Assembly (NCBI GenBank): GCA_047459655.1
Contig: JAJREF010000001.1
Location: 512,001-576,000 of the forward strand
Direction: 5' to 3'
DNA: 64,000 bases
DNA from: Rhabdochlamydiaceae bacterium
GTDB taxonomy: Bacteria > Chlamydiota > Chlamydiia > Chlamydiales > Rhabdochlamydiaceae
The notes beneath the pieces were generated by a model. It saw only the letters and a list, made by a program, of their open reading frames with translations, did not search any database and was not told the origin of the DNA. Below, in pieces: positions 1 to 50,213 of this stretch (position 1 is its first letter; every line of letters starts with the position of its first letter). The translations under genes and the position numbers were made by a program.

Positions 1-362
1 AAGTAGGCTTAAATAACAAACTAATGGGGCAAGTCAATCTTGTACTCATCGGCTCTTCATTTGTCAAAACAAACGGTTCTTTCACTCTCATCAGTGGCGT
101 CATTGGACTGGAATACATCAAGACAGGATCTTCTGCCGCAATGGTCAATAGAGCCCTTGAAGGGTTTGTGAAGGGTGTATACTTGGAGATGCCAAAAGGG
201 ATCAGGATCAACATTGTCTGCCCGACAATCGTATCAGAGTCAATGCCCCTCTATGGATCTCTCTTTAAAGGATTCACCCCCGTTCCTGTCTCTACAGTTG
301 CTACAGCATTTGCCAAAAGCGTAGAAGGCTCTGAAACAGGAAAAATCTATCCTCTTCTGTGA
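1..362 (+). CDS. short-chain dehydrogenase/reductase, 3' part (truncated by the window start)
   Basis: NKLMGQVNLV, GSFTLISG, NRALEGFVKG and GIRINIVCP are typical SDR C-terminal motifs. Confidence 0.8.
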   Translation, partial: VGLNNKLMGQVNLVLIGSSFVKTNGSFTLISGVIGLEYIKTGSSAAMVNRALEGFVKGVYLEMPKGIRINIVCPTIVSESMPLYGSLFKGFTPVPVSTVATAFAKSVEGSETGKIYPLL

Positions 363-17529: not shown

Positions 17530-17798
17530 TGAGACCGTTGCATAAGTCAGCGTATTTTGAAAAAGTAGCACATTTTGATGAGATTTTGAAATGTGCGTTT
17601 TTACAAACATGATCACTTATGGAACCTCTGGACAAGTGCTTTATCGAAGATTACTGATCAGTTTTTCGAAGACGATGATTTTGGAGAACTTAGCTAACAT
17701 GTAGAATGTTAGAGGATTAGAAAAATCTAGTATTCGCAAAAATTGGGAGCAAGATTCGGCAAATGATTTGTCCAGAAGTTCCTTTTCCAATGGTCTCA
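17530..17798. mobile_element. palindromic element (type D) interrupted by family A copy 3
   Basis: Left end tgagaccgttgcataagt; its complement is split into acttat (17615-17620) and ccaatggtctca (17787-17798); internal hairpin gcacattt/aaatgtgc. Confidence 0.7.
17621..17782 (+). mobile_element. MITE family A, copy 3 (full length, 162 bp)
   Basis: GGAACCTCTGGACAA...TTGTCCAGAAGTTCC; collinear with copy 2. Confidence 0.92.
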
Positions 17799-37377: not shown

Positions 37378-38442
37378 ATGGCTGAAAAAACAGAAAAGGC
37401 GACCCCGAAGAAGCTACGTGATGCAAGAAAAAAGGGGCAAGTCGCTAAATCACAAGACTTCCCCTCAGCTTTCACATTCGTTGTCTCGATTGCGATGACC
37501 TTGATGAGCGCTAGGTATCTATTTCAGCAGATGGGCAGTTACCTCATTTATTGCTTTCGTAACATCTCAGGCAATATTGATCTTCAAAATAGAGCCGGGG
37601 GTTATTTAGGCGAATGCATGATGGTGATTTTAAATGCAAGCTTGCCCATTGCTATCATCACAGCTCTCATGGGAGTTTTGGTTAATTTCTTAATTATAGG
37701 ACCTGTTTTTTCATCTGAAGTGCTTAAAATCGACGTGAAAAGGCTGAACCCTGTGACTAATCTGAAAAACATGTTTAAAATAAAAACATTAGTCGAATTA
37801 ATCAAGTCGGTTTTGAAAATCACTGGAGCGTGTATTTTAATCTACAGCGTTGTATACAACAGCGTTCCTCAGATTATAGCTACTGCTGCAATGCCCATCT
37901 TAGGAACAACGGAAGTTTTTTCCAGCTTTCTTTTTAAAGTTATTATACGTGTAGGAATTTTTTTTGTCTTTGTTGCTATCTTGGACCTAACCTTTCAAAA
38001 ACAAAACTTTATGAAAGAAATGAAAATGGAAAAATTTGAGGTCAAGCAAGAGCATAAAGATACAGAAGGGGATCCTCATATCAAAGGTAAGCGTCGCCAA
38101 GCAGCTCAAGAAATTGCCTATCAAGAAGGCCCAGGGGCCACCAAAAGAGCAAGAACTGTCATTACAAATCCTGTGCACTTAGCAGTTGCTATCGACTATG
38201 CAGAAGAAAAAGAGCCAGCCCCTCGGATCTTAACAATGGGCAAAGGCCTCGTAGCCGATCAAATCATCCGTATTGCCCAACAAGAGCATGTCCCCATTAT
38301 GAGAAATGTCGAACTCGCACAAAAGCTTTTCAGTAATGGGAAAATAGGTGATTATATACCTGAGGATACCTTTGAAGCTGTGGCCGAGATTTTGCATTGG
38401 CTTAAAAAATTGGAAGAAGAAAATTTGGAGTTATTTAAGTGA
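37378..38442 (+). CDS. sctU: type III secretion export switch protein SctU (CdsU)
   Basis: EKTEKATPKKLRDAR, EGDPHIK and the NPVH autocleavage-site variant. Confidence 0.95.
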   Translation: MAEKTEKATPKKLRDARKKGQVAKSQDFPSAFTFVVSIAMTLMSARYLFQQMGSYLIYCFRNISGNIDLQNRAGGYLGECMMVILNASLPIAIITALMGVLVNFLIIGPVFSSEVLKIDVKRLNPVTNLKNMFKIKTLVELIKSVLKITGACILIYSVVYNSVPQIIATAAMPILGTTEVFSSFLFKVIIRVGIFFVFVAILDLTFQKQNFMKEMKMEKFEVKQEHKDTEGDPHIKGKRRQAAQEIAYQEGPGATKRARTVITNPVHLAVAIDYAEEKEPAPRILTMGKGLVADQIIRIAQQEHVPIMRNVELAQKLFSNGKIGDYIPEDTFEAVAEILHWLKKLEEENLELFK

Positions 38443-40571
38443 AGAAGTTTTTTAGTGACTTGTTAAGAAATCTCGGAGGGGAAAAAGCTCTGCGAACTGT
38501 GAGCCGCTCTGCAGATGTTATGCTAGCTTTCTTTGTCGTCTTGATCGTGATGATGATCATCATCCCTATCTCCCCCACTTTTCTTGATAACCTCATAGCC
38601 ATTAATTTAACTGTTTCGATATCACTACTCATGGTAGCTCTCTACATTCAAAAAGCTGTGAACCTCTCTATATTCCCCTCACTCTTGCTCCTGACTACGA
38701 TGTTCAGGCTGGGGATTGAGATTTCAGCAACGCGTCAAATTCTTCTCCATGCCTATGCAGGCCACATCATTCAAACCTTTGGACAGTTTGTGGTAGGAGG
38801 AAGCTTCATCGTCGGTATCGTCGTCTTTCTTATCATTACAATTGTACAATTCATTGTCGTAACAAAGGGTGCCGAGAGGGTTGCTGAGGTAGCCGCTAGA
38901 TTCACGCTAGATGCGATGCCAGGTAAGCAGATGAGTATCGATGCCGACATGCGCAGCGGGGTTATCGATGCCAACCAAGCAAGAGAACTCAGGCTAGCCC
39001 TTACCAAAGAGAGTCAGTTGTACGGAGCGATGGATGGTGCGATGAAGTTCGTAAAAGGGGACGTCATTGCTAGTATCGTGATTGCCGTTATTAACATCAT
39101 TGGAGGCCTTATCATTGGTATTTCCATACATGGTATGAGCGCAATGCAAGCAGCCAAAGTTTATACCCTCTCTCTATCGGGAGGCGGCCTTATCTCTCAA
39201 ATTCCTTCCCTATTGATCTCTTTAACAGCTGGTATCGTGACTACGCGTGTTTCTAGTGAGAAAAAAGATGCAAGCTTGGGGAAGGAAGTCTCTTCCCAGC
39301 TACTAGGGCAACCGAAAGCAATCATGATTGCAGCAGCTGTACTTTTATTGATGGCGCTTATCCCTGGCTTTCCTAAAATCATCTTTATTTGCTTAGCCAT
39401 ACTTTTAGCAAGTATCTCCTTTGTGACACAGTATAAAGCAAAACAAGCGTTGCAAAAATCTATGGGGGGAACGATTGCCGCATCCACCGATACTGATGTC
39501 CCAGGACACTCTATGGTTCGTGGACCAAGCGATGAGTATGCTCTTACTCTGCCCATTATTTTAGAGGTGGGAAAAAGCCTTTCAACTTTGATTAAAAAAG
39601 ATAAACAGGGACACTCTTTTGTTGAAGAGATGATCCCAAAAATGAGAAGTGCCCTCTACCAGGATTTGGGAGTGCGTTTCCCTGGCATTCATGTGCGCAC
39701 CGATTCCCCTACCTTAGAAAGTGATGAGTATGCAATCTCCCTCAATGAAGTTCCCATTGTAAGAGGAAAAATTTTAGAAGGAGCTCTTCTTGTCAAAGAA
39801 GCTCCCGAGATTCTCAAAAAATACAATCTCCCTTTTACACAGGCTAAAACAACCTTTGGCCAGCCCTCTTTGTGGGTTGAGCTCAAATATCAAGAAATTC
39901 TTCAAAAAGCGGGCATTAAATTCTGGAAACCCCTTGATGTAATGATCCTGCATCTTTCCCACTTTTACCGTACACATGCCGCTGACTTTATCGGCATTCA
40001 AGAAGTCAGAGGAATTTTAGAGTTTGTCGAAAAATCTTTCCCCGATCTTGTCAAAGAAGTCACGAGGCTTGTTCCTTTACAAAAACTCACAGAGATATTT
40101 AAACGCCTCGTGCAAGAACAAATTTCAATTAAAGATCTCCGCACGATTTTAGAAGCTCTCTCTGAATGGGCGCAGACAGAAAAAGACACCGTCTTATTGA
40201 CCGAATATGTAAGATCATCTCTTAAGCGCTATATCAGCTACAAATACTCCCAGGGGCAGTCTGTACTTGCCGCGTATATCCTTGACCCTGAAATTGAAGA
40301 CATGGTAAGAGGAGCGATTAAACAAACATCTGCAGGCTCTTACCTAGCGCTAGACACAGATGCAACGCAGTTGATATTGCATGCCATGCGATCAACCATC
40401 GTTCCAACTCCCCTAGGAGGACAGCCCCCTGTTCTTTTTACCGCTATCGATGTTCGCAGGTTTGTCCGTAAGTTAATTGAGGGAGAATTCCCAGATATGG
40501 CTGTCTTATCTTATCAAGAACTCGTGCCAGAAATCCGAATCCAGCCTTTAGGTAGAATTCAACTCTCCTCA
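38439..40571 (+). CDS. sctV: type III secretion export gate SctV (CdsV/LcrD); the expected stop reads TCA
   Basis: KGAERVAEVAARFTLDAMPGKQMSID, GAMDGAMKFVKGD and C-terminal VLSYQELVPEIRIQPLGRI; about 710 aa. Confidence 0.95.
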
Positions 40572-40583
40572 GGAATAGAAATC

Positions 40584-41803
40584 ATGCCTGAACACTTTAG
40601 CAGTCAACCAACGCAGCCCGTTCACGCAGGTGATGCTGCGCGCGCCCAACAGGCCGCTGAAAAACTTCGCCTTGCCCAATATGCCGTTGCACTCGACAGC
40701 GCTATCGATGAGTTCAAAGACTGGAGCGATACTTCCGCCTCTTTCAATCCCATGAATATGTCTCGTAACTTTGCCACTCTAGAACAACGTCGAGGAAGGG
40801 ACCGCGGAAGAACTGATGAGAGCAACAAAACTCACGAAGCAGATAAAGAAGAAGAAGCTTTAGATGAAGTTGTTCCCATCGAAAAAGTCGAAGAAACCTC
40901 AGAACAATTTCACAGAAAAAACCAAGAACTGCAACAGCGGACACTCCTTCTTTTACGCTCCCGACTCTCTACCAAAGATTCTGCGGAAGATGTCTTAAAA
41001 AAGTCAGCGAATTTTATAAAGATACTTTTTTGGCCGATGAAGCCCTTGACTTCTTAATTGAAACCTCCCGCGGTCGTATTCAAGATATTGTACGCGAGGC
41101 TAAAGCAAACCTCAATCGAGACTTCGAAAGAGAAATCAAAGCTGGTAAAAACATCTTCTCACAATCCCAGGCATTTGCCGCAAAAGGCATCGGGATACCC
41201 ACCTCTTTACGAGACCTCTACCGAGATATTACGGGTAATCCCCGAGAAGCTGCTGTCCTTTTTGAAGAGCTGACTAATAATTACCCTTTTGACAAATTAA
41301 AAACAGTGATCAATTTCATCCTCCACTCTCTTGGCGCAGACATGAAAGCAAAAGGCTCCTCCATTTCCCGTCCTGAGCTGTCCCGCCTTTTCACAGAAAC
41401 TAAAAATATGCAAGCAATACTCGGCATTTTTAGATTCTTTCTATCTCGCATGCGCATGATAACCAGCTCCTTTGCGCGGGAAGGAATTACTTGCCCTGAA
41501 AAAATCAACTTCGAAGCTTTAGCTAAAGCCTTCATGCGCTTTTTGCAAGAAAGATACCCTTCTGTCGATAAAGCCCTCCAGCTTGCTTTCCAATTTGATT
41601 TGGATAAAAAAATTGCCGCCCAAATTATTTTGTATATTCAATTCCGCGACGCCATGCGACAAGTCTCTTCAAAGCTTTTCAGAGATGAAAGGCAAAAACA
41701 AGAATTTCTCCTCTGTTTTATGGACACCTTAGAAGAGCTTGAAGAGCAGCTCGAAGAAGAACTTGAAGAAGAACACAAAAGAAAAAAACAAGAAGGAGGA
41801 TAA
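40584..41803 (+). CDS. copN: type III secretion gatekeeper CopN (SctW), frameshift near 41000
   Basis: Position between sctV and a chaperone gene; LADEALDFL, SLRDLYRDIT and AMRQVSSKLF blocks. Confidence 0.85.
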
Positions 41804-45240: not shown

Positions 45241-45723
45241 ATGACTCAAATTTTACAAGCTTCACTACTTCGAGATGGACTTAACGCACTACAGATAGGT
45301 GCATTACGCATGCCTACTTTCTTCGCACAAATGACTGCTGCTCTTGCTGTTGGAGAAATTGCTGTCCGTTCCATAAAATCCGGGCTAGATTTCGTTGGAG
45401 TTCCAACTGGTGGAAAGCTAGCTACAAGATTGAGCGAGTGGACTTCTATGACTTATACCCAAAAAAATGATGATGGAGAAGAGGTGAAAGTCAAAGTAAA
45501 CTTCCTAAGACCTTATGAAAAAGTGAGTGCACAACAATTAGCTACTGTCGCTTTAGTTGCTGGCCTGTTTGGAAACGTTGGTGCAACAGCAATTGACTTT
45601 GCTTTTGGCCCAGCTCCTGCAATTTATAATAGAGTACTTAGCTTTTTAGGAAATATTCGCGTCGAAAGCGGTTCGGTACACCCCTTAGTTAGTTACGTTT
45701 CTTCTTTTGTTTATAAAGCATAA
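45241..45723 (+). CDS. hypothetical hydrophobic protein
   Basis: 160-aa ORF with gagg RBS, followed by a terminator hairpin. Confidence 0.65.
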   Translation: MTQILQASLLRDGLNALQIGALRMPTFFAQMTAALAVGEIAVRSIKSGLDFVGVPTGGKLATRLSEWTSMTYTQKNDDGEEVKVKVNFLRPYEKVSAQQLATVALVAGLFGNVGATAIDFAFGPAPAIYNRVLSFLGNIRVESGSVHPLVSYVSSFVYKA

Positions 45724-45738
45724 GCGTATAGTTTAACT

Positions 45739-45775
45739 TCAGGGACTGTTTATTTAAGTCCCTGATTCTTTCTTC
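45739..45775 (+). terminator. intrinsic terminator
   Basis: tcagggact/agtccctga stem followed by ttctttctt. Confidence 0.65.
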
Positions 45776-45780
45776 TGTCA

Positions 45781-45921
45781 TGAGTCTATCTCGAAATTAA
45801 AAAACAATTTATTTTTGATGATTTTCGTTCATGTCTAAAGCTCGTTTTTGTGGACAGTGTGAGCACACATGGCCAAAAAAAGGGCAAAAACAAATATTTT
45901 CTTAATTTCGAGATAGTCTCA
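45781..45921 (+). mobile_element. palindromic element family B
   Basis: 20-bp TIRs tgagtctatctcgaaattaa / ttaatttcgagatagtctca (one mismatch). Confidence 0.82.
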
Positions 45922-45955
45922 TAGATCATACAAATAAATTTCAAAGTGCATTTAA

Positions 45956-46286
45956 ATAACCTCTGGATAAGTGCTTTGTCGGAGATTTCTGATCAGTTTT
46001 TCGAAGACGACAATTTTGAAGAACGCAGCTAACATGGAGAATGTTAGCAAGTTCGAAAAATCTAGTATTCGCAAAAATTGGCGGCAAAATTCGGCAAATG
46101 AATTGTTTGAGACCTTTCTACAACTCTGGCAAATCGAAAAAATCGAAGATTTTTTTGCAAATTTTTGATTTTATATCGAAGACATACTCAATAGAGTAGG
46201 CAAGATATGAAAAATAAAATCTGCGGAAAAAGCGCGATTTTAGCGGTTTACCAGAGTTGTGCAGAGGTCTCTTGCCCAGAGGCTAC
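45956..46286 (+). mobile_element. MITE family A, copy 4, TTAA-flanked and interrupted in its right TIR
   Basis: ttaa|ataacctctggataagtgctttgtcgg...gaattg, resuming at 46272 as ttgcccagaggctac|ttaa. Confidence 0.85.
46109..46271. mobile_element. palindromic element (type C) nested inside family A copy 4
   Basis: gagacctttctacaactctggcaaa pairs with tttaccagagttgtgcagaggtctc; central tactc/gagta hairpin. Confidence 0.8.
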
Positions 46287-46365
46287 TTAACAAAAGGGGG
46301 AACTCTTTGTAAAAAGTTTTTCCTATCTAGGAGATCTCTGCATCACTAGTGAAGCAAAAAAATCT

Positions 46366-47980
46366 TTAAGCACCTGAACGAAGTGGGTTAAAGGATTTCG
46401 ATTTAAAGGATTTCTTAAAACCACCTTTTTTATTAGGAAAGGGTGGTCTTGTTTTTCTTAAAGCGATCTCTTTGTTCCATTGCGTACTTAACAACTCCCT
46501 CTTGTGACTGGAAGTCTCTTTGGACTGGGGTAAAATCTTTATCTGGCGATTTAAAGCTTCTCTCTGAAGATCTAGGCTCAAAACCTCTGTCTCTTGACTT
46601 GAAGCCTCTATCTCTAGGCTGAAAACCTCTGTCTGAAGATCGAGTGTTTCTATCTGGCGGGCTAGAGTCTCTATCCGCATATCTAGATTCTCTATCTGAA
46701 GGTCTAAAACCTCTACCGGAAGATCGTGCATCTCTTTCACGAGGTTTAAAACCTCTACTGGAAGAGCGAGAACCCCTCCCAGAGGATCTAAAGCCTCTTT
46801 CTTCAGAAGGAGCTGAGTTTGTTGAAACAGTCAGTGGAGGAAGGGGGCCTGAAGCAGTTTGTACATTAATTCTTTGGCCTGTAAAACGCTCGATTTGCTT
46901 CACAAGTGACATCTCTTTTGTGTGAGCAAATGTATATGCAATACCTGTAGCTCCAGCTCTTCCTGTTCTACCAATGCGGTGTACATAATCTTGCACATTG
47001 TCTGGTAAATCAAAGTTAATCACATGGCTGATTGCTGGAACATCAATTCCTCTTGCTGCAACATCTGTTGCAACTAAGATTTTGATTTTTCCTTCGCGTA
47101 GGAGTGCCATTGTGCGTGTGCGCTGTCTTTGTTTCATGTCACCATGAAGAGCAGCCGCTTGAAATCCGCCATCCGTCAAATGTCTCTCCAACTTATCTGC
47201 TTGCCGTTTTGTTGCTGTAAAAACAACCACTTGCTGAACAGAAGGATCAACAAGGAGACTCTGCAATAACCTGTATTTATGGTCGATATTAGTAACAGTG
47301 AACAATCTCTGGTCAATTTTTTTCTGAGCAGAAAGATCGATAGCAACGCTGATCTCTACAGGTTTATTCAAAAGACGTTGAGATAATCCTAAAACGCTTC
47401 CTTTAAGGGTAGCAGAAAACATCAATGTCTGACGTGCTTTAGGTGTTGCCTTAGCAATTTGTTCCACGGCATGGATAAAGCCCATATCGAGCATCCGATC
47501 CGCTTCATCAAGGATAAGCACCTCTAATCTTGAAAAATCAACACGCCCTTGTTCCATATGATCGATTAAACGACCCGGTGTGGCTACAAGAATATCAAAG
47601 GGTCGAGAAAGGTTTTTATTCTGCTCAGGATAAGGAGATCCCCCGTAAATACAGACCGTTTTCACAAAAGGAAGGTATTTGGTGTATTTGACGGTCTCTG
47701 TAGCAACTTGCATCGCAAGCTCTCTTGTCGGAACGAGTACTAAAATACGAGGGCCTCTTCCTTTAGAAGGAGAGGGCTCCACAAGACGGTTAAGTGAAGG
47801 AAGCATAAAGGCAGCCGTCTTTCCTGTACCAGTCTGCGCTGCAGCTCTTATATCTAACCCCTTGACAATCTGAGGGATCGCTTGCGCCTGGATCGGTGTA
47901 GCTTCATTATAGCCAAGCTCTTGAAGCGCCTTGAGAATATCTGAATGCAAAAACAAATTTTTAAATGACATATCTTCCAT
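46366..47980 (-). CDS. DEAD-box RNA helicase with a repetitive Arg/Ser/Asp-rich tail (probable late frameshift)
   Basis: AQTGTGKT, PTRELA, DEAD, SAT and HRIGRTGR. Confidence 0.95.
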
Positions 47981-48748: not shown

Positions 48749-50213
48749 TGTTAGCCCAAAATGATAATGTCCTCTTTCTGCTAAATAGAAATGTCCTCTT
48801 TTGAAGATACTGACCTCATTCAAATTTGTTTTTGAAAGGAGGTGAGAGTGAAGGAGTTGATAACTATGAGCAGAAGAGAATTAGAAAGAGTTGAAATGAT
48901 GCGCAATTTAAAAAGAAAAAGCTTTTCCCAGATAGAAGTGGGACAACGTCTGGGGATAACAGCCAGACAAGTTAGACGTTTAAAACAAGCTTACGAACTG
49001 CATGGAGAAGCTGGCTTAGTTTCCAAAAGAGAGGGCAGCCTAGTAATCGCAGGTTAACAGAAGCTTTTAGATCACAAGTCCTAAAGCTGATTTCCGCTCA
49101 TTATGCAGATTATGGCCCTACGTTAGCTCAAGAAAAGTTAGAGGAAAAACATAAGCTTACATTGTCTATAGAGACGCTTAGGAAATGGATGATAGAAGAA
49201 AATATTTGGTCTCCTAAAAAAGCTAAAAAGGCAGTTATCCACCCGATGAGACCAAGAAGGAGTCAGTATGGAGATCTTGTACAAATAGACGGATCTCCCC
49301 ATGACTGGTTTGAAAATAGAGGACCCAGGTGTACCCTTTTAGTATACATTGATGATGCAACTAGTAGACTTGTCGAGCTGTTTTTTTCTCTTGGTGAAAC
49401 AACAGAATCTTATTTTAAAGCGACAAAAAGGTATCTAAAGAGATGTGGAAAACCACTTGCTTTCTACAGCGATAAATATGGAGTTTTTAGAGTCAACCAC
49501 AAAGAAGCTGTATCTGGTAATGGAGTGACAGAGTTTGGAAGAGTCCTAAAAAAACTCGATATCAAGCTCATTTGTGCCAATACACCCCAGGCAAAAGGAA
49601 GAGTTGAAAAAGCCAATCAAACATTGCAAGATCGTTTAGTCAAGGAGATGAGAGAAAAAAATATTTCAACTATTGAAAAGGCAAATGAATGGATTCCCGA
49701 GTTCATAGAGAAGTATAACAAAAAATTTGCCGTAGCTCCTAGAAACGCAGAAGATGCTCATCGAGCTTTAAAACCAGAAGAGAACTTAGAAGAGATTTTC
49801 AGTTACCAGGAAATCCGATGTCTCTCTAAAAACTTAAGCTTCCAATACAAAAACAGTCTTTATCAGATCGATAGTGAAAGATCATCATACACTCTAAGGA
49901 AAGCAAAAGTCATGCTTCTAGAAGATCTCAATGGACGGGTAAGAGTGCTGTATAAGGGCAAGGAGTTAAAATACAAGATATATGGGGAAGAACCGCAAGG
50001 GAAAATTGTGATGTCCAAAGAAATAGATTTAGCACTTAATTGGATAAACAAAAAACCTCAAAAACCTTCAAGGAGTCACCCGTGGAGATAAGAGAAGAGC
50101 TTTTGAAAATGGGTATTTTAGATAAAAAACGGACAAGTCCAATGAAGATCAGAACATCCAAAGAGGACATTTCTAAATTGGAGAAAAGCGGACATTTCTA
50201 TTTTGCGTTGACA
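48749..50213 (+). mobile_element. insertion sequence of the IS1202 family (formerly in ISNCY), 1465 bp, 15-bp target duplication
   Basis: Ends TGT...ACA; repeated aatgtcc/ggacatt boxes in both ends; caaaaaaacagactc at 48734-48748 and 50214-50228. Confidence 0.92.
48842..50091 (+). CDS. DDE transposase with N-terminal HTH (frameshift near 49030)
   Basis: GDLVQIDGSPHDW, YIDDATS, YSDK, PQAKGRVE.ANQTLQDR and C-terminal HPWR. Confidence 0.92.

What the first reader, a model, noticed from the sequence alone, without database searches (positions are those of the whole stretch)
45952..46290. Nested insertion: a type C element sits inside the right TIR of a family A copy
Seen: family A copy 4 breaks off at ...GAATTGTTT. 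A different 163-bp element with its own TIRs follows (GAGACCTTTCTACAACTCTGG / CCAGAGTTGTGCAGAGGTCTC), and the rest of the family A TIR (TTGCCCAGAGGCTAC) plus TTAA resumes after it. A family B element ends 34 bp upstream. Inference: these elements preferentially insert into the ends of other palindromic elements.
Basis: partly seen in the sequence, partly recalled or inferred. Interest (0 to 1): 0.72.

Follow-up and report, generated by a model that had tools for sequence, protein, structure and literature searches.

The report
Mini-transposon nested in another's end
A 163-bp miniature transposon sits inside the end repeat of another one; this single case is likely ordinary nesting, and only the interrupted family itself, a likely IS5-mobilised element, lands inside other elements' end repeats more often than chance in this genome.

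Summary
The structure is real. A 163-bp family C MITE (46109-46271) interrupts a family A MITE 15 bp before its right tip; A keeps TTAA on both sides. The expected 5-bp duplication is decayed (TTGTTT / TTGCC). No contig bridges these junctions; a related strain lacks the whole cluster.

Among 168 two-ended insertions in this genome, 16-18 fall at positions 11-17 of another element's terminal repeat, against 2.4-3.6 expected (4.6-6.4 under a local null). Element interiors and sites within 20 bp outside ends are not enriched, so B's proximity means nothing. The excess comes from family A, whose ends match an IS5 element in the genome: 7 of 14 left ends of family D carry an A at the same 4 bases, in both orientations. 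Family C (2 of 13) is not significant. A second MITE-rich relative without family A (144 insertions) shows no enrichment.

So this is ordinary nesting, plus one family-specific hotspot whose mechanism is untested. Nested MITEs and elements that target other elements' ends are both known.

The parts
45241..45723 (+). Flanking gene, 160 aa, no NCBIfam family; converges on the cluster
45739..45765 (+). Short hairpin after the upstream gene, likely its terminator; a similar hairpin follows the orthologue in G002
   Evidence: sequence; G002 sequence; not listed by the terminator scan
45782..45920 (.). Family B MITE, 139 bp, AT on both sides; 2 loci in this genome, similar elements in G015 and G023
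45952..45955 (.). Left TTAA target duplication of the family A copy
45956..46108 (+). Family A MITE, left part (model 3-151 of 162); left TIR decayed; ends in the first copy of C's target (46103-46108)
46109..46271 (.). Family C MITE, 163 bp, TIRs 46109-46129 and 46251-46271; 6 differences from its sister copy at C1:313420-313582
46272..46286 (+). Outer 15 bp of family A's right TIR, starting with the second, decayed copy of C's target
46287..46290 (.). Right TTAA target duplication of the family A copy
46331..46364 (+).
   Evidence: motif search; the related strain's contig resumes at 46365
46433..47980 (-). Flanking DEAD-box RNA helicase gene, converging on the cluster
17531..17797 (-). Family D MITE in this window with a family A copy (17621-17782) at positions 12-15 of its left TIR: one of the 7 hotspot cases

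Best explanation
A non-coding family C MITE lies inside the right terminal repeat of a family A MITE, likely placed there by a DDE transposase acting in trans with C's ordinary loose choice of 5-bp target, and the measurable preference for other elements' ends in this genome belongs to family A, not C. Shown: the nesting and its order (C after A); target duplications for both families; A's ends are those of an IS5 element at C3:6644-7825; A copies are enriched at positions 11-17 of D, N and J terminal repeats. Inferred: the IS5 transposase moved A; an IS5-superfamily transposase no longer found in this assembly moved C; A's hotspot arises because these repeats present a TTAA/ATAA-type core just inside a GC-rich cap, with a contribution beyond the primary sequence I could model (bending, or a bound protein). 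The cluster sits between two convergent genes, where insertions are likely tolerated.
For: Empty-site reconstruction restores A. 100 of 144 intact elements have perfect duplications, 133 within one mismatch. A's right end is 17 of 17 identical to the IS end; the IS protein scores 277 bits on transpos_IS5_4, cut-off 140; both carry TTAA-type flanks, fitting the Py-T-A-Pu target of IS5 (PMC5493358, passages). C 2 of 13 in TIRs is not significant. A: 11-13 of 73 at positions 11-17 vs 2.5-4.2 under the local null, P at most 0.0004. D left ends 7 of 14, D right ends 1 of 12; CATAAG occurs about 179 times outside annotated elements with 1 A insertion; expected A in about 30 D sites 0.014-0.07. Both orientations occur and the nested copies are 83-93% identical, below the family mean of 91% on average. 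No enrichment in G100.
Against: Both of C's in-TIR cases fall at positions 11-13, the same zone as A's (P 0.05-0.10), and a C remnant sits in a J TIR at C1:420812, so C may share the preference and n is too small to tell. Non-A families together give 5 vs 1.9-2.5 at positions 11-17 (P 0.03-0.10). The two clear in-TIR events in G100 are both at position 17 of the N repeat, as is L-in-N here. The focal duplication has 2-3 differences although C is 96% identical to its sister. No autonomous partner of C was found. A's preference could not be replicated: no second genome rich in A was found (6 matches in G006). The 11-17 window was chosen after seeing the data.
Confidence: 0.66

Rival explanations
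1. All these MITE families prefer the ends of other palindromic elements, for example because extruded hairpins or protein-bound ends attract transpososomes.
For: Overall in-TIR excess. C, G and L each occur at positions 11-17; non-A 5 vs 1.9-2.5. The null counts all present-day elements as available hosts and looks about 2-fold conservative (interior 6 vs 10.4-12.8 in G100), which would hide a weak effect.
Against: Non-A in-TIR total not significant; near-end sites and positions 1-10 not enriched; no effect in G100, 2 vs 3.3-4.6 at positions 11-17.
Confidence: 0.13
2. There is no targeting: a few chance D::A or N::A composites were multiplied, by moving as units (A begins with G, so 16 of D's 17 repeat bases survive) or by gene conversion.
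For: One N::D composite is duplicated (C1:250896 and C5:260526; same junction and variants). D left 7 of 14 vs D right 1 of 12 despite the same repeat. Three opposite-orientation copies share an allele found in 4 of 65 copies; unmatched permutation P 0.023.
Against: Age-matched permutation P 0.21. Two orientations. The A at C5:260602 sits in a composite whose twin lacks A. The A at C1:393736 is 98.8% identical to a copy that is not in D, while its host end is more decayed (5 of 44 vs 5 of 162, P 0.04). Collapsing by hand to about 12 host/end/position/orientation classes still exceeds 3.6 (P 4e-4); A alone 8 vs 2.9 (P 0.01).
Confidence: 0.14
3. The junction is an assembly artefact between two similar repeat ends.
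For: No listed contig bridges either junction. Contig C4 duplicates part of C1 and several genes look frameshifted, so the assembly has errors; the extra T at 46108 may be one.
Against: A mis-join would not restore a full A with TTAA on both sides and a partly duplicated target. This C copy differs from every other. The same-strain run matches the flanks without differences and reads 11-13 bp into B; two of its contigs show a D-type end directly before an A end, though that run may be the source sample.
Confidence: 0.04

Closest known systems
Bacterial MITEs nested in one another (pneumococcal BOX, RUP, SPRITE; PMC3049150, passages)
   Same: Short hairpin-forming elements with TIRs and target duplications, found in clusters and inserted into one another; that paper names the same two causes (shared site preference or tolerance).
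   Different: Here one family hits a fixed register (positions 11-17) inside other families' terminal repeats; the passages I read report no such register.
IS5-family elements and their MITEs (IS5 target choice: PMC5493358; MITE mobilised in trans: MITEAba12, PMC6382973; passages)
   Same: Py-T-A-Pu-like 4-bp target; hotspots need more than the tetranucleotide; a coresident IS shares the MITE's ends.
   Different: A's interior is not homologous to the IS interior; its hotspots are other MITEs' repeats, not promoter regions.
IS4321/IS5075 targeting the TIRs of Tn21-family transposons (seen as a reference title and passages in PMC11187229; the original paper was not held)
   Same: An element inserted at a fixed position inside another element's terminal repeat.
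   Different: Those are IS1111-family elements with a DEDD enzyme and an RNA-selected target, nearly site-specific. A has a DDE/IS5 partner, terminal repeats, 4-bp duplications and 42-45 of 73 insertions away from any detected element.
IS30 / IS911 insertion next to their own inverted repeats (PMC9333248, passages)
   Same: 16-17 of 73 A copies abut another element end, mostly A-TTAA-A.
   Different: IS30 targets the outside tip of its own repeats with a 2-bp spacer; the finding concerns insertion inside the repeat of a different family.
IS231A inserting into the ends of Tn4430 (recalled; one search showed only reference titles, the paper was not held)
   Same: If recalled correctly, a DDE element with a hotspot in another transposon's terminal repeat, tied to target sequence and DNA bending.
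   Different: IS4 family, autonomous; not checked here.

Membership tests
MITE (families A and C) | Short, non-coding, multicopy | tested here: met
   162 and 163 bp; 95 and 22 loci; no ORF of 80 aa or more over 45952-46290
MITE (families A and C) | Terminal inverted repeats | tested here: met
MITE (families A and C) | Target-site duplications that vary with the site | tested here: met
   A 46 of 65 perfect, 63 within one mismatch; C 6 of 14 and 10 of 14; decayed at the focal C site
MITE (families A and C) | Presence/absence between strains | tested here: met
   Related strain in run X6 joins 45781 to 46365 with 50 other letters; not an exact empty site
IS5-mobilised MITE (family A) | Ends shared with an IS5-family element in the genome | tested here: met
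   C3:6644-7825, 17 of 17 at the right end; transpos_IS5_4 above cut-off; its reading frame is broken in this assembly
IS5-mobilised MITE (family A) | Py-T-A-Pu-like 4-bp target | tested here: met
   TTAA in 22 of 43 free sites; logo
IS5-mobilised MITE (family A) | Mobilisation by that transposase | not testable with these tools
   needs a transposition assay
IS5-superfamily-mobilised MITE (family C) | Autonomous element with C-type ends | tested here: inconclusive
   None in the genome. A 473-bp metagenome element with C-type ends (L183) carries two DUF772 fragments below cut-off, E 0.017 and 0.008
IS110/IS1111-type end-targeting elements | Subterminal repeats, no target duplication, single RNA-selected target | tested here: not met
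   Terminal repeats, 4-5-bp duplications and many unrelated sites
Known structured RNA family | Rfam match at gathering score | tested here: not met
   25 matches, all below gathering score, mostly generic hairpin models

The most novel reading that the evidence does not exclude
An IS5-type DDE transposase recognises the terminal repeats of other MITE families as such (bound by a transposase, or bent) and inserts at a fixed register 11-17 bp inside them. This leaves the host's outer 15-16 bp intact, so the passenger lands in neutral DNA and may ride with the host; family C and the 3-bp families do the same more weakly.
Probability: 0.2. Interest if true: 0.6.

Novelty: new member of a known kind. 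Interest (0 to 1): 0.3.

Why it matters
The nested insertion itself is ordinary. What is of use is a quantified, family-specific hotspot: half of the D left ends carry an IS5-type MITE at the same four bases. That gives a clean substrate for asking what, beyond the tetranucleotide, makes an IS5 hotspot. The work also documents a large set of MITE families in an environmental, likely chlamydial lineage; my three literature searches on chlamydial MITEs and nested MITEs listed no paper that describes them by title or abstract start, which does not show that none exists.

Tried and rejected
Reads: two lays on assembled contigs only; no listed piece bridged the focal junctions; no RNA holder listed. 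At two further hotspot loci the related strain lacked host and passenger together (skips of 235 and 324 bp), so the order of events could not be read. Orthologous empty site in G002: an unrelated gene lies between the flanking genes. Parent of C: no long element with C ends in the genome; the DUF772 element at C3:5251-6476 has different ends; relatives of that protein gave none; locus L200 is a D-type end beside a truncated transposase, not a parent. The D-A junction motif in 401 genomes: 3 matches here, 1 in G354 that is a chance match. Abutting copies (A-TTAA-A): 16-17 vs 2-7 under target-only or local nulls but 31-35 under a +-8-base target model whose training sites likely include decayed ends, so left undecided; one triple array is 97-99% identical and may be a tandem duplication. 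Safe-haven selection alone was rejected as the cause of the 11-17 peak because interiors and near-end sites are not enriched and the local null keeps the peak. Earlier-findings look-ups returned nothing. Dropped before counting: contig C4 (duplicate of C1), 3 mis-bounded hits later re-entered with correct ends, 3 events with poor duplications, and all one-ended elements; at least two one-ended N copies lie in A interiors, so the interior count of 6 is low.

Full report
Observation. The window is G000:C1:512001-576000 of a 1.61-Mb, 5-contig genome. I infer an environmental chlamydia from the type III secretion-like genes near the finding (family names recalled). Family A is a 162-bp element with a 4-bp TTAA-type duplication; family C is 163 bp with a 5-bp duplication. 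At the locus the order is TTAA, A (45956-46108), C (46109-46271), 15 bp of A's right end, TTAA. Removing C restores A over model positions 3-160 of 162. C's target would be positions 11-15 counted from A's tip; the two copies read TTGTTT and TTGCC against a family majority of TTGTCC, so the duplication is visible but decayed. This A is the most diverged of 65 copies (21 differences from the majority, some from slippage at the aligned end; median 8). C differs from its sister at 6 of 163 bases. B ends 31 bp before the TTAA, and a decayed C-like end follows at about 46331-46364. The cluster lies between convergent genes.

Independent sequence. Only assembled contigs were available. Run X1 matches both flanks without differences but bridges neither junction. 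Run X6, a strain about 90% alike, has one contig joining 45781 to 46365 with 50 other letters, so it lacks the whole cluster. The elements vary between strains; the junctions rest on the assembly.

What the elements are. Self-comparison and profile searches gave 19 models (15 end types) and 292 hits. A's ends delimit a 1182-bp element at C3:6644-7825 with TTAA/TTTA flanks and a deletion derivative at C3:54551-55134. Its protein scores above cut-off for an IS5 transposase model; the frame is broken in both copies. A shares only the ends with it. IS5 uses Py-T-A-Pu targets and needs further structural features for hotspots (PMC5493358, passages). For C no partner was found. The only link is a 473-bp metagenome element with C-type ends and two sub-threshold DUF772 fragments. 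C/D-type ends spaced 162-165 bp apart occur in several other genomes of the phylum (pattern in 22 of 301 genomes; spacing).

Testing the inference. For 168 two-ended elements (contig C4 excluded as a duplicate) I removed the element and one target copy and classified the empty site with the same profile and end-matrix scan used to zone 354 kb of intergenic DNA. Expected counts weight every intergenic position by each class's target matrix (first version with 141 events). Inside a terminal 20 bp: 22 vs 7.0-7.6 (threshold 12) and 17 vs 4.6-5.5 (threshold 14), P below 1e-4. Positions 11-17: 18 vs 3.2-3.6 and 16 vs 2.4-2.8. Positions 1-10: 1-3 vs 1.6-3.0. Interiors: 6 vs 6.1-8.3 (one-ended cases would add a few). 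Within 20 bp outside an end: 6-9 vs 3.6-7.2. A null confined to each event's own intergenic region keeps the peak (16-18 vs 4.6-6.4) and assigns it: family A 11-13 of 73 vs 2.5-4.2 (P at most 0.0004); other families 5 of 95 vs 1.9-2.5 (P 0.03-0.10); family C 2 of 13 vs 0.4-0.6 (P 0.05-0.10), and 2 vs 0.9-1.1 for the whole repeat. The window 11-17 was picked after seeing the data, and gene calls came from my own simple caller.

The hotspot. Seven of 14 D left ends and 1 of 12 D right ends carry an A at the ATAA at positions 12-15; none of the C ends listed does; about 179 CATAAG sites outside annotated elements hold one A. The target model predicts 0.014-0.07 A copies in about 30 D sites. N ends (positions 15-17) hold four A, one G and one L; one J end holds an A, and a second J end holds a pile of A, P and a C remnant. 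The A-in-D copies occur in both orientations and are not each other's nearest relatives in most cases; sharing of rare alleles is weak (P 0.023) and vanishes when matched for age (P 0.21). Composite copying does occur here (N::D), so I also collapsed events by hand to about 12 classes: still above 3.6 (P 4e-4), A alone 8 vs 2.9 (P 0.01). At two more loci the related strain lacked host and passenger together, which does not settle the order.

Replication. N-like and related elements are widespread in the family (match in 42 of 107 genomes). I ran the same test on G100 (2.0 of 2.04 Mb; 11 end types, no A; 144 events). In-TIR 6-8 vs 6.2-8.4; positions 11-17 2 vs 3.3-4.6; interiors 6 vs 10.4-12.8. 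There is no general end preference, and the null looks about 2-fold conservative. The two clear in-TIR cases there are both at N position 17. No second A-rich genome was found (6 matches in G006, 1 in G015 of 5 genomes).

Mechanism. Shown: nesting, order, duplications, shared ends of A with an IS5 element, and A's positional excess. Inferred: trans-mobilisation by DDE transposases; C's landing here by loose target choice in tolerated DNA; A's hotspot from a target core just inside a GC-rich cap plus a feature my position-independent matrix misses. The left/right asymmetry in D says that bases inside the repeat matter, or that some composites were copied.

Comparison. Nested MITEs are described in pneumococci (PMC3049150, passages). 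Targeting of another element's terminal repeat is known for IS4321/IS5075 (reference title and passages in PMC11187229), by a different, RNA-guided enzyme, and recalled for IS231A. IS30 targets its own ends from outside (PMC9333248, passages). IS expansion in Rhabdochlamydia is described without the word MITE in the main text (PMC9723776, passages). Nine literature searches were run; none listed a paper on this system, and subscription papers and supplements were not seen.

Verdict. Real structure; new members of a known kind; the general claim is not supported, a family-A-specific hotspot is. Interest 0.3.

Noticed in passing
genome-wide in G000 and G100; C/D-type in G326, G325, G261 and others: Full-length MITEs with unrelated sequences and different duplication lengths (2-6 bp) cluster at 157-173 bp, most at 161-165 bp, and most are near-perfect long hairpins. 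A shared length constraint is unexplained.
   Followed up: partly
families N, Q, I, J in G000: These share one inner core but carry different outer 14-16-bp caps with different duplication lengths (3, 4, 2 bp), as if caps were exchanged to suit different transposases.
   Followed up: no
G000 C1:124657-124951: A D left end and a C right end are flanked by the same 5-bp duplication: a D/C chimera, suggesting that C and D share a transposase or recombined through their similar ends.
   Followed up: no
G000 C1:420559-420887: A J element whose left repeat holds a pile-up at positions 13-16: an A, a P and a C remnant in a row.
   Followed up: partly
G000 C1:250896-251186 and C5:260526-260917: An N element carrying a D at the same site in two places; one copy later gained an A in the D end and itself sits inside another A.
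   Followed up: partly
G000 C2:181840, C2:191812, C5:260526: H and N elements inserted at positions about 107-116 of family A three times: a possible interior hotspot.
   Followed up: no
G000 C3:3061-9654: A cluster of four IS types (IS4-like, DUF772 type, IS5, and the 1.46-kb element) with a C-in-D-end insertion among them.
   Followed up: partly
window 48749-50213: One of about 10 copies of a 1.46-kb IS with TGT...ACA ends, frameshifted here; IS481-like by recall, not tested.
   Followed up: no
G000 C4 vs C1:652364-663858: Contig C4 duplicates 11.5 kb of C1 at 99.6% identity, likely an assembly redundancy.
   Followed up: yes
window 38439-41057: A type III secretion export-gate-like ORF appears to run into the next gene, likely a frameshift error of the assembly (family recalled).
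   Followed up: no
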